A DNA stretch of 64,000 nt from Proteobacteria bacterium UBA981. Lineage in GTDB: Bacteria > Pseudomonadota > Gammaproteobacteria > Ga0077536. The translations under genes and the position numbers were made by a program. This document shows positions 45,239-60,698 of this stretch, one piece after another (within the stretch, counting starts at the first letter, position 1; each line of letters starts with the position of its first letter). The stretch lies in assembly GCA_002292285.1 (NCBI GenBank), contig DBBP01000008.1, positions 497,089 to 561,088 on the forward strand, written 5' to 3'. The notes beneath the pieces are model-generated. The model had not been told where the DNA came from. It saw only the letters and a list, made by a program, of their open reading frames with translations, and made no database searches.

Positions 45239-45413
45239 TCGGTATTTAGAGGTGGAGCGAAATCATGCATCAACGCGTCATCGTCCGGCAAATCAGGTGT
45301 ACGCCAGCCTGCGGCTCATGGTTGGGCTGCCGGCGACCGCTATGAGTACTCGCAATCCGTTTCGCACTCGACTGAGTCAGATAGGTTTAGCTTTTCGCGC
45401 GGCTTGACCGCCC

Positions 45414-46805: not shown

Positions 46806-46893
46806 GCTGCTGCCCTCCCAAGACGCTAGCAGAGGTGGATTAAGACTTCGGTGATCTGTATTCCTCCGCCTGCGCGGAACTCGACTCGAGAGA

Positions 46894-48033
46894 TCAGTCG
46901 GCGAGATAGTGATTCAAGCGTTCGTAGGCGCTCAGAAAGTCTTCCTGAAAGTCCTGCATCACTGCCCGCACCGGACGCGCTTCGTTCATCAGGCCAACGC
47001 CTTGCCCGACCCAGTAGGTCGCGAGTTTTTGAGCGCCCTCGTGACCGCTTTGCGACAGCTTGTCGACTTTACTCAAAGCCGGCTCACTAACAAACGACTG
47101 CAGCGGCATCGGCAGTGGCTCAGGCCCAAGCGGACCTTCCCATGCATCCGTCCAGGCGGAGCGCAATTGGCGCGAGGGTTCGCCGGTGCGACTGCGTGAA
47201 CGCACGGTGTCGCGCGAGGTGGCGCGGAGCATTTTCTCTTTCACGATTGGGTTCGTTTCGGCTTCTGGCGTGGTCAGCCATACTGAAGCGGTCCACGCCC
47301 CAGCCGCACCCATTGCCATGCAAGCGGCCATTTGACGACCGGTCACGATCCCGCCCGCCGCGAGCACAGGAATATCCCCATACGCCTGAATCGCCTCAAC
47401 AACCTCGGGTACCAACACCATCGTTGATACCTCGCCGCAATGTCCGCCGGCCTCACCGCCTGCCACGACGAGGATGTCCACCCCCGCTTCAAGCTGACGA
47501 ATAGCATGCGCCTTGGCGCCGACCAGCGCCGCTACGGCCACGCCATGTTTGCGACCATATTCGAGCATGCTGTCCGGCGGTACGCCGAGCGCGTTGGCAA
47601 TCAATTTGATGGGATGGCGAAACGCCACCTCCATGGTCGCTTCAGCACCTGAGGGGTGGAGATTTTTACCGATTTGCAATGTATTACGCCGTGCACGCTC
47701 GAGATCAGATGATTCAATGCCGTGCTCGGAGAGAACGCGCGCGCTGAAATCGATATGCGAATCCGGAATCGCCTTGAGCAATCGCTCGCCGTCAAACGAT
47801 TCCCCTTTGCCCATAACCTTATCCGGAATAAGCAGATCAAGACCGTAGGGTTTGCCGTCAATATTCGCATCAATCCAGGCGAGTTCCTCTTCGAGGCGCT
47901 CGGCCGACATGCTCGCCGCGCCAAACACACCGAACCCGCCCGCCTTCGAGACTTCCACCACGACATCGCGGCAATGGCTGAAGGCGAACAACGGAAACTC
48001 GATACCGAGCCGCTCACATAGCGCTGAATTCAT
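46894..48033 (-). CDS. Nitronate monooxygenase (NMO / 2-nitropropane dioxygenase) family FMN protein
   Basis: Start at ATG 48033 (MNSALCERLGIEFPLFAFSHC). VVAGGEAGGHCG is an FMN-site block. Confidence 0.8.
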   Translation of the reverse strand: MNSALCERLGIEFPLFAFSHCRDVVVEVSKAGGFGVFGAASMSAERLEEELAWIDANIDGKPYGLDLLIPDKVMGKGESFDGERLLKAIPDSHIDFSARVLSEHGIESSDLERARRNTLQIGKNLHPSGAEATMEVAFRHPIKLIANALGVPPDSMLEYGRKHGVAVAALVGAKAHAIRQLEAGVDILVVAGGEAGGHCGEVSTMVLVPEVVEAIQAYGDIPVLAAGGIVTGRQMAACMAMGAAGAWTASVWLTTPEAETNPIVKEKMLRATSRDTVRSRSRTGEPSRQLRSAWTDAWEGPLGPEPLPMPLQSFVSEPALSKVDKLSQSGHEGAQKLATYWVGQGVGLMNEARPVRAVMQDFQEDFLSAYERLNHYLAD

Positions 48034-48055
48034 TATCGACTCCGTGCCTCGGGCA

Positions 48056-48853
48056 CTATTTGCCTTTATAAACGGGTTCACGCTTCTCCATGAACGCGCG
48101 CGGCCCTTCCTGCGCATCTTCGGTTTTGAACACCGGCGCTGAAATCTTCGTTTCCAGTTTCAACGCATCCAGTTCCTCCATGCCCAGACAAGCACGCGCA
48201 GATTTGCGAATTGCCTGCACCGCAATCGGTCCATTGGCCGCTATTTTGTTCGCTATTTCAGTCGCTTTGCCGATAACGTCATCTGTTACGTAATTCAGAA
48301 ACCCGTAGCCGAGCGCTTCGTCGGCGGTGATCAGATCACCAGTCAATAGCAGCTCCATCGCTTTGGCATGCGGCAACTGATGCGGCAGACGCACCGTTGA
48401 ACCGCCGGCCGGGAAAATTGCCCACTTCACTTCCTGTACGCCCAGCTTCGCAGCCGGCACAGACACGCGAATGTCTGTGCCCTGGGTCATCTCCATACCG
48501 CCGGCGATGGCATGACCATTAAGCGCAGCGATAACTGGCTTGACCGGATCGAAGCTGCGCAAAAATGCGTATTCAAAAATATCCGGGCGCGCGAGAAGCT
48601 TTTCATCCCACTCATCTTCCACCCCACGGGTGCCCGCAATCAGGGGAACCAGGCGTCCTAAATCGGCGCCGGCGCAAAACACCGTGCCGGTGCCAGTAAG
48701 AATCGCTACGCGTACGTTGTCGTCGTCTCGCACTGCGTCCCACGCATCAGCCAGGCGCACCGCGACCTCGGGATTGACGGCATTGCGTGCCTCGGGACGG
48801 TTGAGTGTGACGGTGGCGATGTGCCCGTCTACTGCGTAATCGACAACGGCCAT
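48056..48853 (-). CDS. Enoyl-CoA hydratase/isomerase (crotonase) family protein
   Basis: Motifs are VTLNRPEARNAV and LTGTGTVFCAGADL. 265 aa. Confidence 0.85.
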   Translation of the reverse strand: MAVVDYAVDGHIATVTLNRPEARNAVNPEVAVRLADAWDAVRDDDNVRVAILTGTGTVFCAGADLGRLVPLIAGTRGVEDEWDEKLLARPDIFEYAFLRSFDPVKPVIAALNGHAIAGGMEMTQGTDIRVSVPAAKLGVQEVKWAIFPAGGSTVRLPHQLPHAKAMELLLTGDLITADEALGYGFLNYVTDDVIGKATEIANKIAANGPIAVQAIRKSARACLGMEELDALKLETKISAPVFKTEDAQEGPRAFMEKREPVYKGK

Positions 48854-49090
48854 GCTATTTCCCTTAGTGTGATGATGGAGGCCTTAGTCTAACCGTGCGG
48901 CTTGATCAGGGGAACGCGTGACCGCGCGGTCCAGAAGCGCTAGCGGTGGGCCAGGGGGGGGCGCGAAAGCATCCTTCAGCCATGCTGATGGCCGACATCG
49001 ACCGCCCCTTTGGGAAGGAACACCACTCAACCGTTATCGCCGCCCCTCGCGCTTCCAGTACAATCCGCCCGGCAATTAATCGAGCAGCGC

Positions 49091-50068: not shown

Positions 50069-50515
50069 ATGGACGTCATTCCGCATACCGGTATTGGTGA
50101 CATACGGCTCGGTTCGAGTCGCGAATCCATCGCCACCATGCTCGGCGCGGCAGAAAAAAAATCGCGCGACTACCATGAAGATGGTGAGCATTCCGAAGTG
50201 TGGGTGTATCGGCTTTTACGCCTCGAACTCTCGTTCGATTCCGAACACGATTTTTATTTATCGCATATCACGTCATATCACCCCTACACCTTGGTGCGCA
50301 GCTTCAATCCGATCGGGCTGGAAGAGAAATTTCTGTTGCAGAAGTTCCCACACCTGGATCTCGACGTCGAAGTCAGCACAGAAGAAAAATATTTCACTGA
50401 CAAGGTGCTCGACCTGACCTTCGGAACAGCGCGCGGAAAGGTCGTTAGCGTGACAATATTCCCGGCGTATGATGGTGACGGTAAACAGGTGCTGTGGCCG
50501 GCAGGCCCGTCATAG
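50069..50515 (+). CDS. Hypothetical protein (no family recognised)
   Basis: 148-aa ORF filling an otherwise empty slot. It looks AT-richer than its neighbours and has no clear RBS. Confidence 0.45.
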   Translation: MDVIPHTGIGDIRLGSSRESIATMLGAAEKKSRDYHEDGEHSEVWVYRLLRLELSFDSEHDFYLSHITSYHPYTLVRSFNPIGLEEKFLLQKFPHLDLDVEVSTEEKYFTDKVLDLTFGTARGKVVSVTIFPAYDGDGKQVLWPAGPS

Positions 50516-50980: not shown

Positions 50981-51410
50981 ACGAAACCATTCGGCGGGCT
51001 GCTTGATTGAACCGGGCTCGCGAGCCGTAGCGCCTCGCAACGACGTCCTCAATGCAATCGCGGATGGGCCACTGGCAATGACGGACATGCCATAGGCCCG
51101 GAAATACTGGCGTCTGACGCCGGCTTGCCCTGGCACTTCAGCCGCTCTGCCGCGAAAAAAACTTAAACAATTGATTAATAAATATTTTTTGACCTGAAGG
51201 CGAACTACAGCAACACTTTTGCAGGTCGATCATCAGCCCCCCCATACGCACCACGCGACGCAGCGTACGCAACTTCGCTAGCAGGCAATTCAGTAACCAC
51301 TTCGCAGATCACGCAATTGGCGGTGCTATCACCATGCACAACCCGGACCGGCCCGCTACGCTTACAGGCACTTAGTCCACGCTAATCTTCCGCCGAAATA
51401 TCTAAAATCT

Positions 51411-51439
51411 TTTAAATTAGATAGTTAGCTCTGTATACT
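51411..51439 (+). promoter_or_regulatory. Candidate sigma70-type promoter (TTTAAA-N17-TATACT) inside an AT-rich tract upstream of the Slam-like gene
   Basis: The hexamers and 17-nt spacer were read directly. The site lies about 40 nt upstream of ATG 51480. The surrounding 51395-51473 is far more AT-rich than the window average. Confidence 0.35.
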
Positions 51440-51479: not shown

Positions 51480-52805
51480 ATGCAACGTTACCTGATCGCG
51501 GCCCTATCGCTCGTTATGCTGACGCTCCCGCTCAATTCGAATGCCGACGAGGCACTCGACAAGGCCCGCGAACTACTCGAAAAAAATGACCCGGTCGCCG
51601 CCTTCGCGGTCCTCGACCCACTTGCTGAAAGCCGAGAGGGCGAACCCGATTTCGACTATTTGTTCGGTATCTCGGCACTGGACGCCGGGTATCTAACCCA
51701 CGCAGTGTTCGCTTTGGAACGCGTATTGGCTGTTCAACCCGACAACGATGTAGCGCGCGCAGAAATTGCCCGCGCCTACTTTTTGCTTGGCGAACGCGAG
51801 ACTGCCATGCAGGAATTCGATACGGTACGCGCGAGCGGCACCGCACCTGCCGCAGCACAGGAAACTATCAATCGCTATCTCGCGCTGCTCGAACGGGCGC
51901 CGGGACAAGCGGGTGATGAAACGACGCTTATCAGCGGCTGGTTCGACATCACTGGCGGCTATGACACCAACATCAATTCCGGCACTGATCAGAGCCAGAT
52001 TGCGTTGCCCGCGCTCGGCAATGTGCGCTTTCAACTAGTCGATGGCGCAACAGAACAGGGCAGCGGTTTTGTACAACTTGCCGGCAATGTGAATATTTCG
52101 CACCGTCTGACGGACAACATCCGCGCGATCGGCGGTGCACGAGGCTTCTTCCGCGAAACTGAATCACCGTTTAGCACTCGCGATGCTTACGCCTACGCAG
52201 GTCTCACCAGCGAGCATGGCAAACACCGCTTTACCGTCGCTGGCAACTACGAAAACTACGCGTTGGATGGTGATACGTTGCGCAACGTCTATGGTGGATT
52301 TGGCCAGTGGACATACGCACTAGATGATAGTTCGCGAGTGAATTTTTCAGTGCAGGGTTCTGCGATCGAGTACATCAATATCCCCACCCGGGACGTCGAT
52401 CGATATGTGTTCGCCGCCGGCTACGTTAAAGCGTTCGCCATGGCCGGCGAGCCCTATGTGTTTACAGGGGTTTACGGCGGTTTCGAGAATGAACGCGATA
52501 GCGCCTTCCCGCAGTTCGGACATGATTTATACGGTGGCCGCGTTGGCGCCAACATCGGCATATTCGCCAACACGAGAGTGTATGCCAGCGTGGCGATGGA
52601 GCAGCGCGACTATAACGGCGAGGACACAATTTTCCTGACGCGGCGCGACGACACTCAGCTTATTGCCAACGCCGGCCTTGAGTACGAAATCAATCGGTTT
52701 GTAAAAATCGCACCAGAAATTTCCTACATAAACAATGATTCAAATATCCCTTTGAGTGATTACGACCGCATCGTCGGTAGCATGCGCTTACGTTATTCGT
52801 TCTAG
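51480..52805 (+). CDS. Outer-membrane TPR + beta-barrel protein, Slam/DUF560 (type 11 secretion)-like
   Basis: The signal peptide is MQRYLIAALSLVMLTLPLNSNA. About 120 aa of TPR-like helices are followed by about 300 aa of alternating beta-strand pattern ending ...MRLRYSF, with the terminal aromatic residue typical of OMPs. Confidence 0.6.
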   Translation: MQRYLIAALSLVMLTLPLNSNADEALDKARELLEKNDPVAAFAVLDPLAESREGEPDFDYLFGISALDAGYLTHAVFALERVLAVQPDNDVARAEIARAYFLLGERETAMQEFDTVRASGTAPAAAQETINRYLALLERAPGQAGDETTLISGWFDITGGYDTNINSGTDQSQIALPALGNVRFQLVDGATEQGSGFVQLAGNVNISHRLTDNIRAIGGARGFFRETESPFSTRDAYAYAGLTSEHGKHRFTVAGNYENYALDGDTLRNVYGGFGQWTYALDDSSRVNFSVQGSAIEYINIPTRDVDRYVFAAGYVKAFAMAGEPYVFTGVYGGFENERDSAFPQFGHDLYGGRVGANIGIFANTRVYASVAMEQRDYNGEDTIFLTRRDDTQLIANAGLEYEINRFVKIAPEISYINNDSNIPLSDYDRIVGSMRLRYSF

Positions 52806-52825
52806 GAAGCCCCGGAGCAACGGCG

Positions 52826-54475
52826 ATGAAAGATCACTATCCCACGACTCTCAAACCCCTGGCCATTGCAGTCGCGATTGCCGCGGGCGTCGCACCGCTT
52901 GCGCCGGCCTGGGCCGCTGCAGGCAAAGTCGCATTCGCGATTGGTGACGTTACGATAGAAAATCCAGGTGGTGCGCGGAGTGGAATTAAACGTGGCGCGG
53001 TATTGGAATCCGGCGATACGGTTGTCACAGGCAGGGGCCGCGCGCAGCTGCGCTTTACCGACGGCTCGTTCGTATCCCTGCAACCGGAATCCAGCTTTCA
53101 AATCGAAGACTACAACTACGAGACGAAGGAGCAGAGCAACGACCGTAGTGTGTTTAACCTCTTTCGCGGCGGCTTGCGCACGATCACCGGGTTGATCGGC
53201 AAACGTAGTCGCGGCGTTTATCGCGTTAACACGCCGGTCGCGACCATCGGTATCCGCGGAACCGCCTATACCATGGCCCTCCAACCCGATGGTGCACTTG
53301 CGCTCGAATGTGCCGACGGCACGATATTCGCCGCCAACGACGGCGGTACGACATTTTTTAATGCCGGTGAAGTCGGCGTTGTACTCAACCAGTTTACGGT
53401 TCCACAACTGGTCCAGGGTGAAAGTGGCGAGCAGCTGTTAGTCCTGTCACCACCAGCCCGGGAACTCAATGAAGAACAGATTCCGATCATCGGCGATGAC
53501 GGCGACACCGACACGGTGACGATTAACATCACCGGTCTTGACGCAGACGGCGTGAAACAAACATTGCTCGATTCGGGTCTGAACGAAGAACAGGCCTGTG
53601 CGCTGGTCAGCGAGGTTTTCCCGGATTTCGTTATCCCGGAAACGGTCGTGGAAGATGAAGTTGTGGTCGTCCCCCCAGTGCTGCTCATCGATGATGGTAC
53701 AGGGATGGCGGTTGCCTCGGCGTTTTACTGCCATACCGGTTGCGAAGGCGCGCCCTATTTGGAAGTGGAACCACAGGTGTCCACCGACTTTATTACGGGC
53801 ACCGGGCAACTTGAATCCTGGACCAACGAAATAGATGACGAACTTTCCGCACGCGGTGAACTCGCGTTCGCAGACACTGGCGCCGACGAGGTCATTGCCT
53901 GGGGTCGCTGGACGTTTAGCGGCGGTGGTACGTTTACCCGCCGTGACGATCCGGCGTCAGATTTCTTTGGCGCAGAAGAGAGTTTGCACTATGTGGTCGG
54001 TCGGCCAACTGATTTGCTGGCGCTTTCCGGGGCACCGCACAACGGCCATTTCAGCACTATCGGGTACACCACGCCCACCAGCAAAGACGGCACTACCGGT
54101 GCCTTTGTGAGCGCCGCAGCGTTCGTGGACTTTGGCACCAACACGGTCGACGGACAGGTTAAGTACGACTTCCAGGGCGCAACCTACGACGTTCGATTTG
54201 CGAGCCTGACGACCGTCGCACCGGGCGAAGTGGGCACGTTTTCCGGTTCCAGCTTTGCGCCAGACAACATTTCGGCGACGTCCGCAGGGGCCTGTGTAAC
54301 CGGTTGCGACACAAGTGTTCGCGGCATCGTTGCTGGCGATAACGCGGAACGTCTCGGCTTCGTGTATCACGTTAAAGATGCCTATGTGGGGACAGCCAAG
54401 GGACAGCAATTCGGTAGCGTTGCCTTGACACAAGATGATGGCGGACCACTGCCACAGGCACCGGCAGTTCCCTAA
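52826..54475 (+). CDS. Secreted FecR-domain protein with acidic linker and TbpB/fHbp-like C-terminal beta-barrel (candidate T11SS cargo)
   Basis: The Sec signal (…VAPLAPAWA/AAGK) has no lipobox Cys. The FecR-like blocks are GKVAFAIGDVTIENPGG...LESGDTVVTGRGRAQLRFTDGSFVSLQPESSFQI...VNTPVATIGIRGTAY. The C-terminus reads AAFVDFGTNTVDGQV...GTFSGSSF...VRGIVAGDNAERLGFVYHV...QFGSVALTQ. Confidence 0.65.
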   Translation: MKDHYPTTLKPLAIAVAIAAGVAPLAPAWAAAGKVAFAIGDVTIENPGGARSGIKRGAVLESGDTVVTGRGRAQLRFTDGSFVSLQPESSFQIEDYNYETKEQSNDRSVFNLFRGGLRTITGLIGKRSRGVYRVNTPVATIGIRGTAYTMALQPDGALALECADGTIFAANDGGTTFFNAGEVGVVLNQFTVPQLVQGESGEQLLVLSPPARELNEEQIPIIGDDGDTDTVTINITGLDADGVKQTLLDSGLNEEQACALVSEVFPDFVIPETVVEDEVVVVPPVLLIDDGTGMAVASAFYCHTGCEGAPYLEVEPQVSTDFITGTGQLESWTNEIDDELSARGELAFADTGADEVIAWGRWTFSGGGTFTRRDDPASDFFGAEESLHYVVGRPTDLLALSGAPHNGHFSTIGYTTPTSKDGTTGAFVSAAAFVDFGTNTVDGQVKYDFQGATYDVRFASLTTVAPGEVGTFSGSSFAPDNISATSAGACVTGCDTSVRGIVAGDNAERLGFVYHVKDAYVGTAKGQQFGSVALTQDDGGPLPQAPAVP

Positions 54476-54582: not shown

Positions 54583-55248
54583 TTAAGGTTCCGACCACAT
54601 CCGCATTAGAATGTTGTAGCTGTTGTTAAGCGCGGCGGCTTCAGTCGCCCCGCTTCGCCGCAAGCCGTCAATCGCTTCACTCAAATGAATCAACACGGCC
54701 CGCTGTTCAGCCGTCCGCACCAGACTTTCCACCCACGTGACCGCAGCCAGGCGAACGCCTCTGGTAACCGGCGTGACGCGATGAAGAAACTGCGGCGGAT
54801 AGCAAACCATAGAACCTGCCGGAAGCTTCACTGCTGTCTCTCCTCCGACCATCTTGATGACCAGTTCGCCACCATCGTAGCTGGCCGGGTCGCTCAGAAA
54901 AACCGTTAGTGCAACATCGGTACGCATCGCAGCTGGTGCGTACATGATCGCGGCGTCGACATGCTCGCCGTAGGCCATGTCTGCGTGATAGGCACTGATA
55001 AGCGGCGGTCGCACGCGCCGCGGCAACGTCGTCATGACAAACTGGCGATTGCGATGCAGCGCTTCAACGACGATCTTGCCGATCTGTCGGTTAGCGTCTG
55101 CCGCTGGGGACAATTGCAGATTGTTTTTTGCTTCGGCCGCCTGTCCACTGGCCGTTGCAGTGACTGACTCCCATTCAGCGTCGTCAGTAGCGGTGGAGAT
55201 GGCGTCCAGTTCGGAAGCTGAAAGCAAATTGTCGATGCGGGTCAACAT
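54583..55248 (-). CDS. PKHD-type Fe(II)/2-oxoglutarate hydroxylase (PiuC/YbiX family)
   Basis: Start at ATG 55248 (MLTRIDNLLSASELDAI...). SGQAAEAKNNLQL, YGEHVDAAI (HxD), DGGELVI and FLHRVTPVTRGVRLAAVTWVES are as in YbiX/PiuC. Confidence 0.8.
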   Translation of the reverse strand: MLTRIDNLLSASELDAISTATDDAEWESVTATASGQAAEAKNNLQLSPAADANRQIGKIVVEALHRNRQFVMTTLPRRVRPPLISAYHADMAYGEHVDAAIMYAPAAMRTDVALTVFLSDPASYDGGELVIKMVGGETAVKLPAGSMVCYPPQFLHRVTPVTRGVRLAAVTWVESLVRTAEQRAVLIHLSEAIDGLRRSGATEAAALNNSYNILMRMWSEP

Positions 55249-55300
55249 ATCTGCTGCGTTATCCAGTCCGTGGTGAATTGTTGCGAGTGAGGGACCGCTT

Positions 55301-55717
55301 TCATAGGCGTGCCTGCGCCTGATGAATTGCCTGATCACCGCGCGCTATGACAACCATATCGACTGCCATACCGATAGTCACTTCATCCACCGAACAACCG
55401 ATGACATTGGTGATGAACTCGGGCCCTTCCTCGAGTTCTACCACAGCAACGACATACGGCAAGCGTTGCTCAAAACAGGCGTGATAGGCCTTCTCGAAGA
55501 CCACGAACGTCGCCACGACACCGCGTCCCGAAGCCGCCGTCCAAATCAGCGAAGCGGCGCTTGCCTGACACGTGAGACAGGCCTGGCTGCGCGCGTACCA
55601 CGCGCCGCAGCTGCATCTCGCAAGTACGAATCGCCCAGCATCCAGGGCATCCCAGAACGGCTTATCCTCATTTGTGACAACCCGTGCCGGCGGTTTTATC
55701 TCGTGTTTCGTACTCAC
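55301..55717 (-). CDS. DUF35 Zn-ribbon/OB-fold protein
   Basis: 138 aa. FWDALDAGRFVLARCSCGAWYARSQACLTCQAS is followed by an OB-like C-terminus. It lies 10 nt downstream of the thiolase-like gene, the classic pairing. Confidence 0.75.
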   Translation of the reverse strand: MSTKHEIKPPARVVTNEDKPFWDALDAGRFVLARCSCGAWYARSQACLTCQASAASLIWTAASGRGVVATFVVFEKAYHACFEQRLPYVVAVVELEEGPEFITNVIGCSVDEVTIGMAVDMVVIARGDQAIHQAQARL

Positions 55718-55727
55718 TTTAGTCTCG

Positions 55728-56885
55728 TCACGCCGGCTCGGTCGCGAGAATCACGGCCGACTGGGCCTGCCCTGCTCCGGTGATGCCGACGTTGGTCACC
55801 AGTGCGGTCCGGGCATCAGGCACTTGAGTGGCGCCGCCCTCTCCGCGCAATTGCCGGACACCTTCTGCAACATGGGTAAAGCCTTGTACGTACCCCCACG
55901 AGTGCAGCGTGCCGGACGTATTGCAGGGACGCGCCGAATCCCAACAAAAATTGCCTGCGCGCAGCCAGTCGCCCGCCTCACCGGGGCCGCATAAACCCCA
56001 GGCTTCAAGCTGCAAGGCAACGATGATGGTGAATGCGTCGTAGAACTGGAACACGTCGATATCGTCGAGCGTCATACCGGCTTTAGCGAATACCCGGGAC
56101 CGCGCCGGCTCAACGTTGAAATCGGCGGCGCCCATTGATTTGTTCGCTTGCCCGGGGCCGCCCTGGCCGGCCTCGTGGCAGCTGCCAACACCGAGGATGT
56201 GGACAGCGGGTTTGCGCAGCCCCGCGGCTCGTTCTGCACTGGTGACAATAAATGCGATCGCACCATCACTGACCAGACAATAGTCGAGCAGATGCAATGG
56301 CCGAACAATGAAACGTGAATTCTGGTGGTCATCGACACTGATCGGTCGATTCGCCATCATCGCATCGGCGCGGGGTACCGCATTGCCTCTCAAGGCCACT
56401 GCAATCTCGGCTAAATCAGCCGAGCTCGTCGAATATTTGTGAAAATAGCGCTGCGCCATCAGGGCCGACTGAGCGCTGGGGGAAAACAAGCCGAATACCG
56501 CATGCTCATTAACCTCATCTGCGCCGATGGTGACGGTTTGCGAACGCGCGTTGGTCGCGTGTACGCACATCACATAATCCGCACTGCCGGATTCAATCAG
56601 TCCGATGGCGCTGGCGATGGCAAGAATGCCGGTCGCACCGCTGGAGTTAATGAGTAGTGTCGAGTTGACGCCGAGCGCCGCTCGACTGGCGGCCACGCCC
56701 GCCGCACCTTCACCAAAGCCAGGCTGGAAAATGTAGCCATTCACCTGATCGCGCGTGAGTCCGGCATCGATGAGCGCTAATTCGATGGCGTCCCACGCGA
56801 GCTGTTCAGCGCTGGTGTTGGGAATGGTGCCTTGGGGGGTTACGCCAAGACCGGCTATTGCGTAACGTGTCATTGAGCCATGCAC
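55728..56885 (-). CDS. Thiolase-like (SCP-x type) protein, partner of DUF35
   Basis: 385 aa. YAIAGLGVTPQG...SSGATGILAIASAIGLIESG...C-terminal GITGAGQAQSAVIL follows a thiolase-fold pattern. Confidence 0.8.
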   Translation of the reverse strand: MHGSMTRYAIAGLGVTPQGTIPNTSAEQLAWDAIELALIDAGLTRDQVNGYIFQPGFGEGAAGVAASRAALGVNSTLLINSSGATGILAIASAIGLIESGSADYVMCVHATNARSQTVTIGADEVNEHAVFGLFSPSAQSALMAQRYFHKYSTSSADLAEIAVALRGNAVPRADAMMANRPISVDDHQNSRFIVRPLHLLDYCLVSDGAIAFIVTSAERAAGLRKPAVHILGVGSCHEAGQGGPGQANKSMGAADFNVEPARSRVFAKAGMTLDDIDVFQFYDAFTIIVALQLEAWGLCGPGEAGDWLRAGNFCWDSARPCNTSGTLHSWGYVQGFTHVAEGVRQLRGEGGATQVPDARTALVTNVGITGAGQAQSAVILATEPA

Positions 56886-56980
56886 TCAGAGCGTTGTTTG
56901 CACAGCGACTTCCCGCAAGCGTTCCCGACGAGTGGGGTCACAATTGGCATCGACTCAGTGGCCATGCGCTGCTGACGCCG

Positions 56981-57862
56981 TCAGTGTGCGCTCTGCAAGT
57001 CGTTGATCGCACCGAGGTCATAGGTCGAGCTGAACGGTTCATGTTTCGGAATGCCGTAAGCGTGTTTGATTCTGTCCAGTTCGCCCTCTGCAATCATCGT
57101 GGCCAGCGCTTTGTCGATATCGGTGCGCAAACGCTTGTGCGGTTGCCGTGTGGCAACGTGCAAGTTCCAACGCACCGCTGCCGGCGGCTGATAGTCTTTC
57201 ACAAATCCACACTCAGCCAAGCTGGTGTTTCGCAGCATCGCGCCGGAACGTGCTGCAATGCGTAATTGCCAACCGCTGGTGGGGCCCCACAACAAGGCCG
57301 CCTCGGCCTCACCGGAGAGCAGGCCCTTGTACGCCGCGCCGAGCGAAAAGTAATTCTTCGAATCGGCCTTGACCATCGCCAACGCGAAGTGCGCGACGGT
57401 TTGCGACTGAATCGCTACTTTCCGACCACGCAGACTGCGAAAGCCGGCGGGGAAGTCGGCAGCGCAGGCGAGCAGCTCGAAGGCCGCGCCGTAGTACGGC
57501 TCGCCGAGGGCTAAAGCATTCTGGCCGGAGAGACTATCTCTGGCCGGCCCCGGAACGCTGAACACCGCGTCACACTCGTCTCGCGCCAGGCGCCCAAGTG
57601 GGTAATCGCTGTCGTCTATTTCGGTGATGCCTGGTTCATTGTCGATCCACACTGGAACCAACTCGCGCCCACTACTGCGTGCTACCGCTGCTGCCACATC
57701 GTGGTCGAAGCCTGATCTGGTCCCGAAATCAGAATAAGGCTCATTGTGCTTCAGCATGCACACCTTCATCGCAGGACCTTTATTGGCAGCGATGACCGGG
57801 CCACAGCCAGACCCGATCAGCACGCCGACCAACACGACGAGCAAGCATCTGTGCATGGTCAT
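56981..57862 (-). CDS. Periplasmic family-3 solute-binding protein, MoxJ/quinoprotein-dehydrogenase-associated type
   Basis: It has a signal peptide, and MKVCMLKHNEPYSD resembles the MoxJ-like 'VCad.n.PfS' start. It begins 3 nt after the PQQ dehydrogenase stop. Confidence 0.7.
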   Translation of the reverse strand: MTMHRCLLVVLVGVLIGSGCGPVIAANKGPAMKVCMLKHNEPYSDFGTRSGFDHDVAAAVARSSGRELVPVWIDNEPGITEIDDSDYPLGRLARDECDAVFSVPGPARDSLSGQNALALGEPYYGAAFELLACAADFPAGFRSLRGRKVAIQSQTVAHFALAMVKADSKNYFSLGAAYKGLLSGEAEAALLWGPTSGWQLRIAARSGAMLRNTSLAECGFVKDYQPPAAVRWNLHVATRQPHKRLRTDIDKALATMIAEGELDRIKHAYGIPKHEPFSSTYDLGAINDLQSAH

Positions 57863-57865
57863 TGC

Positions 57866-59560
57866 CTAGCGTGGCAAAGCGAACACAATCAATGCGCTGC
57901 CCAGCGTTGTAAGCTTGGGCTCACCGACAATAGCCGCGGCAATGCCGCCGCCGCCGCTTGGAATCGCGACATATTGACGATCATCGCTTTTCCAGGTGAT
58001 CGGTTGACCACGAATCGCCGAGCCGGTCTGGAACTTCCACAGAACTTCGCCGGTGGCGTCATCGAGTGCCAGAGCGTGACCGCTTTGGTTACCTGTAAAT
58101 ACCAATCCGCCGGCGGTCGTCATAGCGCCACCGAGCATCGGAAAGTCATCGCGGTACTTCCATTTAATAGCGCCGGTTTCCGGGTTCAGCGCGACCAGGC
58201 GACCGTAGGCGATTTCATTTGCGCCTTCGGTTTCTCCCGGGCCACCACCCCAGAATGGCGTGCCATTAACAAACACGGCAGTCTCCTTCACCATTTTGGC
58301 GCACGATTCGATGCTCGGCACGTACATCAACTTGCTGGCGGCACTCCATGAGTAGGTATAAGCCCCATTGTTACCGCCTACATTACCCGGACAGATGTAT
58401 TCCTTGTTGCCGTCGGCGACTGGCCGATAGGCAGCGTCGAGAATCGGCCGCCCTTTGGCATCCAGGCCAGTGGCCCAATTCAGTCGGTCGGTGTATTGGA
58501 AGCCTTTCAGAAATTCACCACTCTTCGCATCCAGCACGTACACAAACCCGTTCCGGTTCGCCTGCATCAATGCACGGACTGACTTTCCGGCGAGTTTAAT
58601 GTCTGCAACCACGAGGTTGTTCGTCGCATCGTAGTCCCACACGTCGTGCGGCGTGTACTGAAAGTGCCACTGCAGCGCGCCGGTATCGGGGTTGAGAGCG
58701 AGCACCGAGTTGCTGTAGAGGTTGTCGCCCTTACGCACGTCGCCATTCCAGTCTGGTGACGGATTCCCTGTCGGCCAGTACAGCAAACCGGTCTTGGGGT
58801 CGTAGGTACCCGTATTCCAGGTCGGGCCACCACCGGTTTTCCAGGAATCACCGGCCCAGGTTTCAACACCGGGTTCGCCCGCCACGGGGATAGTGTAGGT
58901 GCGCCATGCGCGCTTACCGTCGGCAATGTTGTAGGCATCGACGAATCCACGTGCGCCGTATTCGCCACCGGCGATGCCGCTGATCACTTTATCGCCGACG
59001 ACCAGTGGTGCCGCGCTAGCGCTATAGCCTTGTTTGTGATCGGCCATGGCGACATTCCACAGCACTTTGCCACTGGCACGATCGAACGCCAGCAGTCGTG
59101 CGTCGAGCGTTGCCATAAAAATACGCTCACCAACAATTGCCACGCCACGATTAATCGGGCCGCAGCAAATACGGATGTCAGCCGGCATGTCGTGCTCGTA
59201 ATGCCACAGTGCAGCGCCCGTACGCTCATCAATGGCCCAGAGGTTGTTATGCGGAGCGGTGAAATAGACCACGCCGTCGATCACCACGGGTGCGCCCGAC
59301 AGCTGTCCCGTCAGGCCAGTTTGAAATATCCATACTGGCGCCAGTCCGGCAACGTTGTCACGATTGATGTCCGTCAGCGGGCTATAGCGCCAGTTTTCGT
59401 AATTTCCGCCATACATGCTCCAACCACTGGTGTCCGTGGTGCCGGCCATCAGGCGTTCGTTGGACACTGGCGCAAAACCCGGCCCGGTCTCAGCGGCCAG
59501 CGCCGTGCTGATGAATAGAGAAAGCGCACACAGCGCCAGAAGTTTGATCGCGTTAATCAT
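57866..59560 (-). CDS. PQQ-dependent alcohol/methanol dehydrogenase (type I quinoprotein), lanthanide-type active-site signature
   Basis: The signal peptide is MINAIKLLALCALSLFISTALA. It has WSMYGGNYENWRYSPL, the vicinal Cys pair RICCGP, and the catalytic block TPHDVWDYDATNN with Asp at +2 after the catalytic Asp. Confidence 0.9.
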   Translation of the reverse strand: MINAIKLLALCALSLFISTALAAETGPGFAPVSNERLMAGTTDTSGWSMYGGNYENWRYSPLTDINRDNVAGLAPVWIFQTGLTGQLSGAPVVIDGVVYFTAPHNNLWAIDERTGAALWHYEHDMPADIRICCGPINRGVAIVGERIFMATLDARLLAFDRASGKVLWNVAMADHKQGYSASAAPLVVGDKVISGIAGGEYGARGFVDAYNIADGKRAWRTYTIPVAGEPGVETWAGDSWKTGGGPTWNTGTYDPKTGLLYWPTGNPSPDWNGDVRKGDNLYSNSVLALNPDTGALQWHFQYTPHDVWDYDATNNLVVADIKLAGKSVRALMQANRNGFVYVLDAKSGEFLKGFQYTDRLNWATGLDAKGRPILDAAYRPVADGNKEYICPGNVGGNNGAYTYSWSAASKLMYVPSIESCAKMVKETAVFVNGTPFWGGGPGETEGANEIAYGRLVALNPETGAIKWKYRDDFPMLGGAMTTAGGLVFTGNQSGHALALDDATGEVLWKFQTGSAIRGQPITWKSDDRQYVAIPSGGGGIAAAIVGEPKLTTLGSALIVFALPR

Positions 59561-59597
59561 CTTTTTTTGACCCTCAAGGCATGCTTAGTTGGCTTTA

Positions 59598-60407
59598 TCA
59601 TAACGGGCAATCCTGATCGAAATCCGGCTTGCGCTTCTCGCGGTGCGCAGCGACCCCTTCGACGGCCTCGGAGGTCGTGAAGCCAAGCATTTCCAACGCA
59701 GTTGAAGCGTCGAAACTCGGACCTGCCATACGATACCAATTGTTCAATGCGTACTTGGTCCACCGCGTCGCTGCCGGGGCGCTGTCGCGCAATCGTTCGG
59801 CGATTTTTAGCGCTCGGTCCTGCAGTTCGTCGTCCTCGACGCACAGCGAAACCATGCCCAGGCGCTCAGCTTCTTCGCCATCCATGGGTTCGCACAACAG
59901 TAAGTGATATTTGGCTTTCGCCATGCCGCACAGCAACGGCCAGTTGATCACAGCCGAATCACCAGCGGCAACGCCCAGACGCGTATGACCGTCGACAATG
60001 CGCGCCGACTTACCGGCTATCGAAATATCCGCGAGCAGCCCCGCGACCAGGCCGGCCCCTACTGCGGCGCCGTTAATCGCCGAGACGATGGGTTTGGAGC
60101 AGTTGATGATGTTGTAGACCAGATCTTTCGCTTCCTTCCACGTTCGCATCAGCGTTTTGGAGTCTTCAATCATCTCCTCAATCATGCCGAAATCGCCGCC
60201 TGCCGAGAACGCGCGACCTTTGCCGGTCAAGATGACCGCACTGACATTCTCATCGTCGTCAATGTCGCGCCAGATATAGGTGAGTTCGCGATGGCCGTCC
60301 TTGTCGAGCGAATTCAATGTTTCCGGTTTGTTAAAGCTGATGCGCAGAATGCGTTCCGCCGGGCTGTCGATATCCAGAGCGTGGTAATGGGCATAACGTT
60401 CAAGCAT
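59598..60407 (-). CDS. Enoyl-CoA hydratase/isomerase (crotonase) family protein
   Basis: Motifs are [12 protein letters not shown] and [14 protein letters not shown]. 269 aa. Confidence 0.85.
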
Positions 60408-60566
60408 GGCTGTGAGTCCTTAATGCAGTGTTCCAATCGTGGTCTTGGCGTCGCCACATGATGCCATTCGTCAGCACAACGAGATAGATGCTGCGCCCTC
60501 TTTCAATGGCGCGGCGTTCGTTACATACTCAGGGCTCATCCATATTGTCGAAAAGGAGGTGATCCA

Positions 60567-60638
60567 ATGTCTAGTGAGATAACTACGGTATCGAAACAAC
60601 TTTTGGGTCGCGTACTCCTAATGAGGTCTGCTCGTTAG
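60567..60638 (+). CDS. Candidate 23-codon small ORF / leader peptide (MSSEITTVSKQLLGRVLLMRSAR)
   Basis: AAGGAGGTGATCCAA (60553-60567) precedes the ORF, with the GGAGG core 7 nt from the ATG. An intrinsic terminator lies 60 nt after the stop. Evidence for coding itself is weak because the ORF is short and has no homology signal. Confidence 0.35.
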   Translation: MSSEITTVSKQLLGRVLLMRSAR

Positions 60639-60698
60639 CCGGTACGGAATGTCCAAGCGATATCGATCCTGAGGTTGAAGATATTTCGATCTCACGGA

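What the first reader, a model, noticed from the sequence alone, without database searches (positions are those of the whole stretch)
51480..54475. Candidate type 11 (Slam/DUF560-like) secretion pair with an uncharacterised FecR-domain cargo
ORF 51480..52805 has a Sec signal peptide and about 120 aa of TPR-like helices (…DPVAAFAVLDPLAESREGEPDFDYLFGISALDAGYLTHAVFALERVLAVQPDNDVARAEIARAYFLLGE…). About 300 aa of beta-strand pattern follow, ending ...MRLRYSF. This size and layout match Slam/DUF560 outer-membrane translocators. The next ORF starts 20 nt downstream on the same strand. It ends in a segment (HFSTIGYTTPTSKDGTTGAFVSAAAFVDFGTNTVDGQVKYDFQGATYDVRFASL…GTFSGSSF…VRGIVAGDNAERLGFVYHVKDA…QFGSVALTQ) that follows the strand pattern of the C-terminal 8-stranded barrel of TbpB, fHbp, HpuA and hemophilin. 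That barrel is the domain Slam proteins recognise. Each call is only moderate alone, but the translocator-then-cargo adjacency is the canonical T11SS arrangement, so the two reinforce each other. Known cargo are metal/heme-acquisition or host-interaction proteins. To my knowledge a FecR-fold cargo has not been characterised.
Basis: partly seen in the sequence, partly recalled or inferred. Interest (0 to 1): 0.8.

Follow-up and report, generated by a model that had tools for sequence, protein, structure and literature searches.

The report
Slam-type secretion pair, FecR-domain cargo
Two adjacent genes encode a Slam-like outer-membrane translocator and a signal-peptide protein that joins a FecR-type domain to the barrel "address tag" of known Slam cargo, which points to a large, undescribed environmental class of type 11 secretion substrates.

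Summary

**The outer-membrane protein (OMP), 51480-52805.** It has a signal peptide. Its model (pLDDT 88) shows a TPR domain followed by exactly 14 β-strands. On its own it scores only on TPR_19 and the tail of BBP2_2. However, 58 of 65 homologues match PF04575 (DUF560/SlipAM), and 10 of 10 tested pass the curated cutoff.

**The cargo, 52826-54475.** It starts 20 nt downstream, after a GGAG. It has a signal-peptidase-I signal and no lipobox. The model shows a FecR β-sandwich, a disordered linker, and then a handle plus an 8-strand barrel.
- All 43 significant Foldseek PDB hits are TbpB, fHbp, hemophilin, NHBA, HpuA or FecR-type anti-sigma domains.
- Two relatives pass Pfam's TbpB_B_D cutoff.

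**Gene linkage.** In 56 of 65 testable reference-genome loci the OMP gene lies directly upstream of the cargo gene. The reverse check gave 4 of 4.

**Family features.**
- There is no TonB receptor or ECF sigma factor nearby, and no Fur box.
- The C-terminal module spans at least 2000 protein clusters, often with 2-7 copies per protein.
- A cytoplasmic TPR-GT41 glycosyltransferase is a frequent third gene elsewhere, but it is absent here.
- The FecR domain is the most conserved part of the cargo, which is the reverse of known cargo.

The T11SS literature searched does not describe FecR cargo. I rate this a new variant of a known kind. Secretion has not been tested experimentally.

The parts
51411..51439 (+). 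Weak sigma-70-like promoter candidate (TTTAAA-17-TATACT), 41 nt upstream of the OMP start
   Evidence: It matches 9 of 12 consensus positions, and the number of such sites in the region equals the shuffle expectation, so this is only tentative. A 10-nt inverted repeat at 51396-51405 / 51417-51426 overlaps it.
51480..52805 (+). Gene for a T11SS/Slam-type outer-membrane protein (441 aa)
   Evidence: ORF. Homologues carry PF04575. AF2 model with pLDDT 88.1.
51480..51545 (+). OMP signal peptide (residues 1-22, predicted cleavage after SNA)
   Evidence: Sequence inspection. It is modelled as a lone helix at residues 2-15. This region is not conserved in the family (22% pairwise identity).
51549..51896 (+). 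Periplasmic TPR domain of the OMP (residues 24-139, seven helices)
   Evidence: TPR_19 at 27.6 bits. Helices in the model. It is the most conserved part of the OMP (60% mean pairwise identity, 38 of 116 columns at least 90% conserved).
51924..52799 (+). 14-stranded β-barrel of the OMP (residues 149-440), with a low-confidence 32-residue loop after strand 1
   Evidence: 14 strands in the AF2 model. The best-superposing PDB barrels are the 14-stranded OmpG (TMt 0.66-0.67) and CymA. SlipAM matches in homologues cover this region.
52806..52825 (+). 20-nt intergenic spacer with a GGAG ribosome-binding site (52814-52817)
   Evidence: No terminator-like site lies between the genes.
52826..54475 (+). 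Gene for the predicted T11SS cargo (549 aa): FecR domain + linker + handle + barrel
   Evidence: ORF. AF2 model with pLDDT 83.8. Foldseek. Family.
52826..52915 (+). Cargo signal peptide (residues 1-30, predicted signal-peptidase-I cleavage AWA/AAGK; no lipobox)
   Evidence: Sequence inspection of 65 family N-termini. The mature N-terminus AAG[RK]VxFAxGxV is conserved.
52922..53413 (+). FecR-type β-sandwich domain (residues 33-196)
   Evidence: PF04773 at 47.3 bits. Foldseek matches to BDI_1681 and to the PupR periplasmic domain (rmsd 3.0-3.6 Å over 131-134 columns), and to the 5ix9 adhesin anchoring domain (31% identity, 1.1 Å over 62 columns). It is the most conserved part of the cargo (50% pairwise identity).
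53414..53695 (+). Acidic, partly disordered linker with two short helices (residues 197-290)
   Evidence: pLDDT is below 50 for residues 208-230; helices at 240-249 and 254-264. In relatives this region is replaced by (EP)n or GNPDTP repeats, or is followed by extra modules.
53696..54001 (+). β 'handle/pedestal' domain (residues 291-392) with the conserved GWGRW and SLHYVVGxPT motifs
   Evidence: Model. Together with the barrel it aligns over about 275 columns with fHbp, the TbpB C-lobe and hemophilin. Conserved columns.
54041..54433 (+). C-terminal TbpB-type β-barrel (residues 406-536), the predicted T11SS targeting domain, with a conserved CxxxC
   Evidence: Model. NHBA C-domain TMt 0.71. 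The homologous region of P0167 and P0241 passes the PF01298 cutoff. In the 60 FecR-bearing representatives listed (of 71), the last module ends within 8 residues of the C-terminus.

Best explanation
This is a two-gene operon for a type 11 (Slam/DUF560-type) secretion system together with its own cargo.

Proposed mechanism:
1. Both proteins are exported by Sec and lose a signal-peptidase-I signal peptide.
2. The 441-aa protein inserts into the outer membrane as a 14-stranded barrel, with a three-repeat TPR domain facing the periplasm.
3. The 549-aa protein is not lipidated. Its C-terminal handle-plus-8-strand-barrel module is the same fold that targets TbpB, fHbp, HpuA and hemophilin to Slam. 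The translocator recognises this module and the protein is moved across the outer membrane.
4. Like hemophilin, it would then be released or stay loosely attached to the surface.
5. The N-terminal FecR-type β-sandwich would be the functional 'effector' part, most likely a protein- or ligand-binding (adhesin-like) module.

The system is not wired to iron or haem uptake.

Shown here, computationally: the folds, the family relationships, the signal peptides, the operon spacing and the conserved gene pairing.

Inferred: Sec export, recognition of the C-terminal barrel, translocation, release, and what the FecR domain does.
For: OMP:
- Signal peptide, TPR domain and exactly 14 strands.
- 58 of 65 homologues match PF04575.
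- 10 of 10 tested pass its cutoff at 26.7-44 bits with near full-length coverage.

Cargo:
- Confident model (pLDDT 83.8) with FecR, linker, handle and barrel.
- All 43 Foldseek PDB hits at E<=1e-3 are TbpB, TbpB C-lobe, fHbp, hemophilin HphA, NHBA C-domain or HpuA for the C-terminal part, and FecR-type anti-sigma domains for the N-terminal part.
- P0167 (TbpB_B_D 29.5 bits, HphA_C 20.4 bits) and P0241 (TbpB_B_D 34.4 bits) pass the 26-bit TbpB_B_D cutoff over the homologous region.
- The module sits at the extreme C-terminus and has a near-invariant Cys pair, which fits an extracytoplasmic protein.

Linkage:
- 20-nt gap with an RBS.
- 56 of 65 full-length cargo genes with upstream room have the OMP gene directly upstream, and 1 has it downstream.
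- 4 of 4 independently chosen OMP homologues have a family cargo gene directly downstream.

Cargo-like family features:
- 2-7 tandem handle-barrel modules, and Pro-rich repeat spacers. These parallel the multi-TbpBBD and Pro-Thr-repeat cargo described in PMC12282271.

Soluble cargo has precedent: hemophilin and HrpC (PMC8406197, PMC12282271).

FecR-domain proteins named as surface adhesins or lipoproteins (Lsa33, LipL45) give weak NCBIfam matches to the domain.
Against: - No experiment has been done.
- The window's own OMP does not reach PF04575 at E<0.1, and its only above-cutoff barrel hit is the tail of BBP2_2.
- The window's own cargo does not hit TbpB_B_D, HphA_C or Lipoprot_C, and only 3 of 65 relatives hit TbpB_B_D.
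- A profile of the C-terminal module does not detect fHbp by hhalign (no better than shuffled controls) or any cargo chain in PDB sequences.
- The PDB contains no Slam structure, so the OMP fold search cannot separate Slam from other TPR-barrel or 14-strand proteins.
- The usual T11SS companions are absent: no TonB-dependent receptor, no TonB, no Fur box.
- The FecR domain is otherwise known from periplasmic contexts. Here it is the most conserved part of the protein, which is unlike the variable N-terminal effectors of known cargo.
Confidence: 0.78

Rival explanations
1. Same secretion pair, different topology: a tethered surface protein without a lipid anchor. Only the variable C-terminal handle-barrel module(s) are passed through the Slam-type barrel. 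The conserved N-terminal FecR-like domain stays folded in the periplasm, docked on the OMP's TPR domain or plugging the pore. The flexible linker threads the barrel. This would be analogous to the N-terminal retention module that holds LapA/MpIBP-type RTX adhesins in their outer-membrane pore.
For: - The FecR domain is the most conserved cargo region (50% versus about 30% for handle and barrel). The OMP's periplasmic TPR is its most conserved region (60% versus 43% for the barrel).
- Every characterised structural relative of the N-domain acts on the periplasmic side: the PupR/FecR-type domains, and 5ix9 'cell surface anchoring domain' (31% identity, 1.1 Å over 62 columns).
- The family profile finds 5ix9 at E=1e-3. 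NCBIfam 'retention module-containing protein' matches residues 38-103 at 23.4 bits.
- There is no lipid anchor, yet many members are giant multi-module proteins, which is typical of cell-attached adhesins.
- The linkers are disordered or rigid Pro-rich spacers such as (EP)n.
Against: - All known T11SS cargo cross the membrane completely.
- The retention-module match is below its 50-bit cutoff.
- The conservation contrast is partly an ascertainment effect, because homologues were collected by a score dominated by the FecR domain.
- Some loci encode two or three tandem cargo genes per OMP (L024, L063, L065), which fits poorly with a 1:1 plugged pore.
- NCBIfam names FecR-domain Leptospira proteins as a surface adhesin (Lsa33) and a lipoprotein (LipL45).
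Confidence: 0.2
2. Not secretion but signalling. The FecR-domain protein is a periplasmic sensor or regulator that docks on the outer-membrane protein, as FecR docks on FecA, and relays a signal. The C-terminal barrel would be merely a periplasmic binding domain.
For: The PF04773 domain is clear. The closest structures to it are anti-sigma periplasmic domains. FecR co-occurs with cluster-1 T11SS loci as a regulator, alongside sigma-70 domains (supplement of PMC12282271).
Against: - There is no transmembrane anti-sigma segment. The FecR domain begins directly after a cleavable signal peptide.
- No ECF sigma factor or TonB-dependent transducer lies within about 7 kb in the window or in four annotated related loci.
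- In the fold search, the handle-barrel module matched only surface or secreted proteins.
- Up to 7 tandem modules, in proteins of up to about 3350 aa, are implausible for a periplasmic sensor.
Confidence: 0.06
3. The OMP is a generic TPR-porin of the BBP2/EpsL/PgaA/BcsC kind that exports a polysaccharide or another non-protein substrate, and the FecR protein is an accessory or unrelated neighbour.
For: - The window OMP's only above-cutoff barrel hit is BBP2_2 (25.8 bits against a cutoff of 23.7). It also gives weak NCBIfam matches to EpsL and PEP-CTERM-associated OMPs.
- The top Foldseek hits include BcsC and PelBC.
- A glycosyltransferase gene is a frequent neighbour in other genomes.
- PMC8406197 notes that some PgaA homologues carry PF04575.
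Against: - The BBP2_2 match covers only the last ~65 residues, whereas SlipAM matches in homologues cover about 280 of 288 model positions.
- The model has 14 strands and three TPRs, not 16 strands with a long TPR array.
- There are no polysaccharide synthase or export genes in the window flanks.
- The neighbouring glycosyltransferase is GT41, has no signal peptide and so is predicted to be cytoplasmic. GT41 is known (my own knowledge) as a protein-modifying family, not a polysaccharide synthase family.
- The tight, two-way pairing with a protein bearing a T11SS-cargo fold would be left unexplained.
Confidence: 0.04

Closest known systems
Slam1/Slam2 with TbpB, LbpB, fHbp and HpuA (Neisseria surface lipoprotein translocation; T11SS cluster 1)
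   Same: - The OMP has a signal peptide, a short periplasmic TPR domain and a 14-strand DUF560-family barrel.
- The cargo gene is adjacent.
- The cargo ends in a handle plus an 8-strand barrel that superposes on TbpB, fHbp and HpuA structures.
   Different: - The cargo is not a lipoprotein.
- The N-terminal functional domain is a FecR fold, not a transferrin- or factor-H-binding lobe.
- There is no TonB-dependent receptor, TonB or Fur box.
- The hosts are free-living environmental Beta- and Gammaproteobacteria.
- The OMP is so divergent that the window copy falls below PF04575 detection.
Hemophilin-type soluble T11SS cargo (HphA/Hpl, HrpC with HrpB/HsmA-type OMPs)
   Same: The cargo is non-lipidated, Sec-dependent, and has a handle-barrel C-terminus. 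A. baumannii hemophilin 7re4 is among the Foldseek hits. P0167 scores sub-threshold on HphA_C.
   Different: There is no haem-binding clamp and no haem or iron gene context. An extra ~165-residue FecR domain and a long linker precede the handle. Many relatives carry 2-7 modules.
FecR/PupR-type anti-sigma factors (periplasmic C-terminal cell-surface signalling domain)
   Same: The PF04773 β-sandwich superposes on BDI_1681 and the PupR domain at 3.0-3.6 Å.
   Different: There is no cytoplasmic anti-sigma domain and no transmembrane helix. There is no partner ECF sigma factor or TonB-dependent transducer. The domain is at the N-terminus of a secreted-type protein rather than the C-terminus of an inner-membrane protein.
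N-terminal retention module of LapA/MpIBP-type RTX adhesins (5ix9)
   Same: The first ~60 residues of the mature protein match the 5ix9 anchoring domain (31% identity, 1.1 Å; profile E=1e-3). The overall logic is also similar: N-terminal β-sandwich, then a long variable spacer, then C-terminal secretion-competent modules.
   Different: The NCBIfam retention-module score is below its cutoff (23.4 against 50 bits). No Pfam RTX-repeat match was found, a type 1 secretion signal or LapG cleavage site was not looked for, and the outer-membrane partner is a DUF560 barrel, not a TolC-like channel.
Leptospira FecR-domain lipoproteins LipL45 and Lsa33
   Same: Both place a FecR domain right after the export signal. 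Weak NCBIfam matches cover residues 33-167 (29.7 and 20.5 bits).
   Different: Those are lipoproteins without the handle-barrel module, and the scores are far below their family cutoffs (350 and 420 bits). They are not members of the same family.
HMW1C/HMW1 (my own knowledge: cytoplasmic GT41 glycosyltransferase modifying a secreted adhesin before export)
   Same: In 39 of 63 related loci with room, a GT41 gene lacking a signal peptide (so predicted cytoplasmic) lies directly downstream of the cargo gene or within 6 kb of it.
   Different: The GT41 here carries an N-terminal TPR array (OGT-like). The secretion route is T11SS rather than two-partner secretion. The window itself has no GT41 gene. 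Glycosylation of the cargo is untested.

Membership tests
T11SS / Slam outer-membrane protein (DUF560, PF04575 SlipAM) | The protein itself matches PF04575 at or above the curated cutoff | tested here: not met
   The window OMP gives no PF04575 match at E<0.1. TPR_Slam scores 13.7 bits against a cutoff of 35.2. BBP2_2 scores 25.8 bits on residues 370-438 only.
T11SS / Slam outer-membrane protein (DUF560, PF04575 SlipAM) | Full-length homology to proteins that are PF04575 members | tested here: met
   The OMP is 38-65% identical over 95-100% of its length to PF04575-positive proteins. 58 of 65 aligned members match PF04575 at E<=0.01. 10 of 10 tested score 26.7-44 bits against a cutoff of 22, covering up to positions 6-288 of 288.
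T11SS / Slam outer-membrane protein (DUF560, PF04575 SlipAM) | 14-stranded β-barrel preceded by a periplasmic TPR domain and a Sec signal peptide | tested here: met
   The AF2 model (pLDDT 88.1) has helices at residues 24-139 and 14 strands at 149-440. The signal peptide was identified by sequence inspection.
T11SS / Slam outer-membrane protein (DUF560, PF04575 SlipAM) | Encoded next to a cargo gene with a C-terminal 8-strand barrel | tested here: met
   In the window the gap is 20 nt. 56 of 65 loci have the OMP gene directly upstream of the cargo gene. The reverse check gave 4 of 4.
T11SS / Slam outer-membrane protein (DUF560, PF04575 SlipAM) | Cargo surface exposure or secretion depends on the OMP | not testable with these tools
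   This needs co-expression or knockout experiments.
T11SS cargo (TbpBBD / lipoprotein-C type C-terminal barrel) | C-terminal 8-strand β-barrel of the TbpB/fHbp/hemophilin fold, preceded by a β handle/pedestal | tested here: met
   Model: handle at 291-392, barrel at 406-536. Foldseek E values are 5e-6 to 7e-4 to TbpB, fHbp, TbpB C-lobe, HphA, NHBA and HpuA, with about 275 aligned columns. NHBA barrel TMt is 0.71.
T11SS cargo (TbpBBD / lipoprotein-C type C-terminal barrel) | Sequence match to PF01298 (TbpB_B_D), PF22829 (HphA_C) or the lipoprotein-C domain | tested here: inconclusive
   The window protein gives no match. In the family, 3 of 65 match TbpB_B_D and 1 of 65 matches HphA_C. P0167 (29.5 bits) and P0241 (34.4 bits) exceed the 26-bit cutoff. 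The profile-versus-fHbp hhalign test is not significant.
T11SS cargo (TbpBBD / lipoprotein-C type C-terminal barrel) | Sec-type signal peptide (lipoprotein or soluble) | tested here: met
   A signal-peptidase-I type signal is present and there is no true lipobox. The 12 of 65 Cys-containing motifs lie inside the h-region. This was by inspection, not by a predictor.
T11SS cargo (TbpBBD / lipoprotein-C type C-terminal barrel) | The barrel lies at the extreme C-terminus | tested here: met
   In the window the barrel ends at residue 536 of 549. In the 60 FecR-bearing representatives listed (of 71), the last module ends within 8 residues of the C-terminus.
FecR-type anti-sigma factor (cell-surface signalling) | PF04773 periplasmic domain | tested here: met
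   47.3 bits on residues 64-167. Foldseek matches 4m0h and 6ovk.
FecR-type anti-sigma factor (cell-surface signalling) | N-terminal cytoplasmic anti-sigma domain plus a single transmembrane helix | tested here: not met
   The FecR domain starts at residue ~33, directly after a cleavable signal peptide.
FecR-type anti-sigma factor (cell-surface signalling) | Adjacent ECF sigma factor and TonB-dependent transducer | tested here: not met
   The window flanks from about 44 to 62 kb encode hydrolase, GFA, PKHD dioxygenase and CoA-catabolic enzymes only. Four annotated related loci have none either.
RTX-adhesin retention module (LapA/MpIBP type) | Match to the NCBIfam retention-module model at its cutoff | tested here: not met
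   NF033682 scores 23.4 bits against a cutoff of 50, on residues 38-103. Structurally, 5ix9 gives 31% identity and 1.1 Å over 62 columns.
RTX-adhesin retention module (LapA/MpIBP type) | C-terminal RTX repeats and a type 1 secretion signal | tested here: not met
   No Pfam RTX-repeat match was found in the window protein or in seven long relatives. The C-terminus is a handle-barrel module instead.
Polysaccharide TPR-porins (BcsC / PgaA / PelB) | 16-strand (or larger) barrel, long TPR array, and an exopolysaccharide synthesis operon | tested here: not met
   The model has 14 strands and about 3 TPRs. There are no EPS genes nearby. The BcsC and PelBC Foldseek hits have TM scores of only 0.30-0.44.

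The most novel reading that the evidence does not exclude
The FecR-like N-domain is not a surface effector. It is a conserved periplasmic docking or plug domain that pairs with the equally conserved TPR domain of the Slam-type OMP. The protein therefore ends up spanning the outer membrane: FecR domain inside, linker through the 14-strand barrel, and 1-7 variable handle-barrel modules displayed outside. This would be a lipid-free way of anchoring T11SS cargo, convergent with (and partly homologous to) the retention module of LapA-type RTX adhesins. In many lineages it may be coupled to cytoplasmic glycosylation by the linked GT41 enzyme.
Probability: 0.2. Interest if true: 0.85.

Novelty: new variant of a known kind. 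Interest (0 to 1): 0.62.

Why it matters
So far, type 11 secretion has been demonstrated experimentally only for a handful of host-associated 'cluster 1' systems that move iron-, haem- or host-factor-binding proteins. The other DUF560 clusters, from water and soil bacteria, have no characterised members (PMC8406197). The 2025 cargo survey found few convincing cargo outside cluster 1 (PMC12282271).

This locus and its relatives supply a concrete, testable cargo class for environmental T11SS:
- The OMP-cargo pairing is strongly conserved in both directions.
- The C-terminal module family spans at least 2000 protein clusters.
- The architecture is modular, with 1-7 handle-barrel units.
- There is no link to TonB-dependent uptake.
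- The N-terminal domain's characterised relatives work in the periplasm.
- A cytoplasmic GT41 glycosyltransferase is a frequent partner.

If confirmed, this would widen the known functional range of T11SS beyond metal acquisition. It would also open the question of how non-lipidated cargo is retained or released.

Tried and rejected
1. hhalign of the C-terminal module profile (full module and barrel only) against the N. meningitidis fHbp sequence. I recalled the sequence from memory and verified it against PDB at 547 bits. The result was E about 0.4-0.5, no better than reversed or shuffled controls. There is no sequence-level link to fHbp.

2. Profile searches of both families against PDB sequences. 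The OMP profile found only TPR proteins (MamA and others). The cargo profile found only 5ix9. No Slam or cargo chain was detected by sequence.

3. Foldseek of the OMP model against PDB. There is evidently no solved Slam. The hits are generic (BcsC, FadL, PelBC, OmpG, CymA, porins), so this does not discriminate.

4. Word-indexed database search with the C-terminal profile returned only 17 hits, a limitation of the index. It was superseded by the exhaustive HMMER search.

5. Fur-box scan. The best match upstream of the operon is 10 of 19, a level reached about 600 times in the window. Iron regulation is not supported.

6. Rfam scan of the ~490-bp upstream region found nothing at E<=1.

7. A GT41 homologue was sought in the window. 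None was found; the only hit is a TPR cross-match to the OMP.

8. I looked for genera from my loci in the supplementary cluster tables of PMC8406197 to assign the OMP to a numbered SSN cluster. There were no occurrences, so cluster membership is undetermined.

9. Pfam scans of long relatives for adhesin-type repeat domains found only FecR and a low-complexity match. The extra length comes from tandem modules and Pro-rich repeats.

10. The FecI/FecR regulator reading and the polysaccharide-porin reading were both considered and rejected. See the rival explanations.

Full report
**Observation**

The two ORFs are present exactly as described.
- The first runs from ATG 51480 to the stop at 52805 (441 aa). 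An in-frame GTG lies two codons upstream.
- The second runs from 52826 to 54475 (549 aa) on the same strand.
- The gap is 20 nt and contains GGAG 8 nt before the second ATG. No terminator-like site lies between them.

Both are real, conserved genes. The first has 711 database homologues and the second has 1060, the closest at 65-67% identity. Identical copies occur on metagenome contigs with the same flanking genes. The nearest named relatives are from uncultured Gammaproteobacteria.

**The outer-membrane protein (OMP)**

By inspection, the N-terminus (MQRYLIAALSLVMLTLPLNSNA/DE) is a Sec signal peptide.

Pfam on the window copy alone gives TPR_19 (27.6 bits) and a match to the last ~65 residues of BBP2_2 (25.8 bits, cutoff 23.7). 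It gives no PF04575 match, and TPR_Slam scores only 13.7 bits. At family level the picture reverses:
- In an alignment of 65 full-length homologues (A1), 58 match PF04575 SlipAM, with a best E of 3e-16.
- All ten members tested individually pass the curated 22-bit cutoff, at 26.7-44 bits.
- Their matches cover up to positions 6-288 of the 288-position model, and they include a protein 64% identical to the window copy.
- NCBI names several of them 'surface lipoprotein assembly modifier'.

The AlphaFold2 model (pLDDT 88.1) has seven helices at residues 24-139 and exactly 14 β-strands at residues 149-440. That is the Slam/DUF560 layout, not the 16-strand, long-TPR layout of BcsC or PgaA.

Foldseek against the PDB cannot settle the matter, because no Slam structure is there. 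The best-superposing barrels are the 14-stranded OmpG and CymA. BcsC and PelBC appear only because of the TPR-plus-barrel combination.

I conclude the protein is a divergent member of the DUF560 superfamily that falls just below single-sequence detection.

**The second protein**

After a signal-peptidase-I type signal (…APLAPAWA/AAGK), the mature protein begins immediately with a FecR domain (PF04773, 47.3 bits).

The model (pLDDT 83.8) shows:
- a β-sandwich at residues 33-196;
- a disordered acidic linker with two short helices at 197-290;
- a β 'handle' at 291-392;
- a β-barrel at 406-536.

Foldseek against the PDB gives 43 hits at E<=1e-3. For the C-terminal ~275 columns these are TbpB, the TbpB C-lobe, many fHbp entries, A. 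baumannii hemophilin, the NHBA C-domain (TMt 0.71) and HpuA. For the N-terminal domain they are the FecR-type anti-sigma domains BDI_1681 and PupR.

Sequence-level support is weaker but present:
- 3 of 65 family members match TbpB_B_D and one matches HphA_C.
- P0167 (29.5 bits) and P0241 (34.4 bits) exceed the 26-bit TbpB_B_D cutoff over the region homologous to the window's barrel.
- A direct profile-versus-fHbp comparison was not significant.

The family is not lipidated. The Cys residues that look like lipoboxes in 12 of 65 members lie inside the hydrophobic core of a normal signal peptide. A near-invariant CxxxC in the barrel fits an extracytoplasmic protein.

**Linkage**

A scan of one genome per species with the cargo profile returned 79 loci. 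Most are Rhodocyclaceae, Gallionellaceae, Methylophilaceae, other Burkholderiales, Moraxellaceae and various Gammaproteobacteria.
- Of 65 full-length cargo genes with at least 1.3 kb of upstream sequence, 56 have an OMP homologue directly upstream on the same strand and one has it downstream. Several of the remaining eight are second or third tandem cargo copies.
- In the reverse direction, I started from four OMP homologues not chosen through the cargo. All four have a FecR-plus-module gene directly downstream.

**Wider family**

An exhaustive HMMER search with the C-terminal module alone found at least 2000 clusters at 50% identity (the listing cap), 1409 of them at E<=1e-10.
- Of the 140 top representatives, 71 carry the FecR N-domain, with 1-6 modules each. 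Across all the top representatives the module count reaches 7.
- In the 60 FecR-bearing representatives listed, the last module ends within 8 residues of the C-terminus.
- Some relatives replace the linker with (EP)n or GNPDTP repeats.
- The same module also occurs in ~590-aa proteins with classic lipoboxes and two modules each, a TbpB-like layout.

Multi-barrel and Pro-rich-repeat architectures are described for predicted T11SS cargo in PMC12282271.

**Context and regulation**

The window flanks encode the following:
- an α/β hydrolase;
- a GFA-family protein;
- a convergent PKHD/YbiX-type Fe(II) dioxygenase;
- a CoA-type catabolic cluster: a ChsH2 OB-fold protein, a thiolase-like protein, enoyl-CoA hydratases, a PQQ dehydrogenase, a luciferase-like monooxygenase and a nitronate monooxygenase.

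There is no ECF sigma factor, TonB or TonB-dependent receptor here, or in four annotated related loci. There is no credible Fur box and no Rfam element upstream. Unlike the characterised cluster-1 systems, this one shows no link to iron or haem uptake.

**Mechanism**

The best-supported reading (confidence about 0.78) is a T11SS operon. Both proteins are exported by Sec. The OMP forms a 14-strand translocon with a periplasmic TPR domain. The cargo's C-terminal handle-barrel module is recognised, and the non-lipidated protein is moved to the surface or released, as hemophilin is. The folds, the family relationships and the gene pairing are shown computationally. Export, recognition, translocation and function are inferred.

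The role of the FecR domain is open. Weak NCBIfam matches to the Leptospira proteins Lsa33 and LipL45 make a binding or adhesin role plausible.

**An unexpected feature and the novel reading**

In known cargo the N-terminus is variable and the C-terminal barrel is shared (PMC12282271). Here the N-terminal FecR domain is the most conserved region: 50% mean pairwise identity, against about 30% for the handle and barrel. The OMP's periplasmic TPR is also its most conserved region: 60%, against 43% for the barrel. A caveat applies, because homologues were collected by a score dominated by the FecR domain.

The first ~60 mature residues also match the 'cell surface anchoring domain' of an RTX adhesin, 5ix9, at 31% identity and 1.1 Å. 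The family profile finds it at E=1e-3. The NCBIfam retention-module model scores 23.4 bits, below its cutoff.

This leaves room, with a probability of about 0.2, for a tethered topology. In that reading the FecR domain stays in the periplasm, docked on the TPR or plugging the pore, while the variable modules are displayed outside.

**Comparison and novelty**

The pair works like, and by family-level tests belongs with, Slam/DUF560 systems and their TbpB-barrel cargo. It differs in five ways:
- the cargo architecture (a FecR N-domain, no lipid anchor);
- the conservation pattern;
- the ecology of the hosts;
- the absence of TonB-linked uptake genes;
- in most relatives, though not in this window, a cytoplasmic TPR-GT41 glycosyltransferase gene directly downstream of the cargo gene or within 6 kb of it (39 of 63 loci).

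The T11SS literature available does not describe FecR as cargo. It appears only as a co-occurring regulatory domain alongside sigma-70 domains. The non-cluster-1 DUF560 clusters are stated to have no characterised members.

I therefore rate this a new variant of a known kind, with moderate-to-high interest (0.62). The rating is limited by the lack of any experimental evidence, and by the fact that automatic annotation already labels some relatives 'surface lipoprotein assembly modifier' and 'FecR family protein'.

Noticed in passing
L003:7379-9574, L007:7293-9470, L082:8959-11094, L083:8935-11118, L084:8953-11088, L085:9119-11095: A ~660-730-aa TPR + Glyco_transf_41 (GT41) protein without a signal peptide is encoded directly downstream of the cargo gene in 24 of 63 loci with room, and within 6 kb in 15 more. 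This makes OMP-cargo-GT41 the commonest operon form. The window lacks it. It may glycosylate the cargo before export, as HMW1C does for HMW1.
   Followed up: partly
L008:3743-4546, L018:2758-3483, L026:644-1435, L035:1885-2772, L042:3643-4497, L050:3840-4580: In several Rhodocyclaceae-type loci, a short (~250-aa) protein with only the FecR domain and no handle-barrel module is encoded just upstream of the OMP gene. Those loci therefore carry one FecR protein with the targeting module and one without. Its role is unknown.
   Followed up: partly
L024 (2372-3763, 5668-7401, 9400-10836), L063 (471-1886, 1930-3357), L065 (1712-3295, 3299-4786): Some loci encode two or three tandem full-length cargo paralogues after a single OMP gene.
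   Followed up: no
L067:5851-12519; L062:5986-8199: The L067 protein (over 2200 aa, running off the locus) has a run of dozens of consecutive Glu-Pro (EP) dipeptides after the FecR domain, reminiscent of the TonB periplasm-spanning spacer. It is followed by about 7 handle-barrel modules. The L062 protein has GNPDTP repeats in the same position.
   Followed up: partly
Proteins P0382, P0383, P0385, P0387, P0388: The same handle-barrel module occurs in ~590-aa proteins with classic lipoboxes (…LCGC…, …LTGC…) and two modules each, a TbpB-like bilobed lipoprotein layout. They have no Pfam match at all. Other giant module-bearing proteins have a non-FecR N-terminus that begins …VLFSSxG… after the signal peptide.
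   Followed up: partly
window 54583-55338 (- strand): This is a convergent PKHD/YbiX (PiuC-like) Fe(II)/2-oxoglutarate dioxygenase (NCBIfam 224 bits). The family match begins at residue 31 of the listed ORF, so the real start is probably about 30 codons downstream of the GTG at 55338. From my own knowledge, such genes are often iron-regulated, but no Fur box was found near it (best 11 of 19).
   Followed up: partly
window 44900-48900 and 55300-61700: The secretion pair is embedded in a CoA/lipid-type catabolic neighbourhood: a luciferase-like monooxygenase, a nitronate monooxygenase, a ChsH2-type OB-fold protein plus a thiolase-like protein, a PQQ dehydrogenase and two confirmed enoyl-CoA hydratases (a third similar ORF at 60835-61629 was not scanned). 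The pair looks functionally unrelated to it and seems inserted between a GFA gene and the dioxygenase gene.
   Followed up: partly
window 51163-51178 and 51396-51426: There is an AT-rich palindrome TTAAACAATTGATTAA about 300 nt upstream of the OMP start. A 10-nt inverted repeat (AAATATCTAA / TTAGATAGTT) overlaps the -35 region of the only promoter-like site. Both are possible operator sites, but the regulator is unknown.
   Followed up: no
window 50069-50515 (+ strand): This 148-aa ORF between the hydrolase and GFA genes has no Pfam match. It is called as a gene on the identical metagenome contigs.
   Followed up: no
L085:11112-12446: Dihydrofolate reductase and thymidylate synthase genes lie next to one OMP-cargo-GT41 locus. 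This echoes the published co-occurrence of T11SS genes with one-carbon and nucleotide-synthesis genes (PMC12282271).
   Followed up: no
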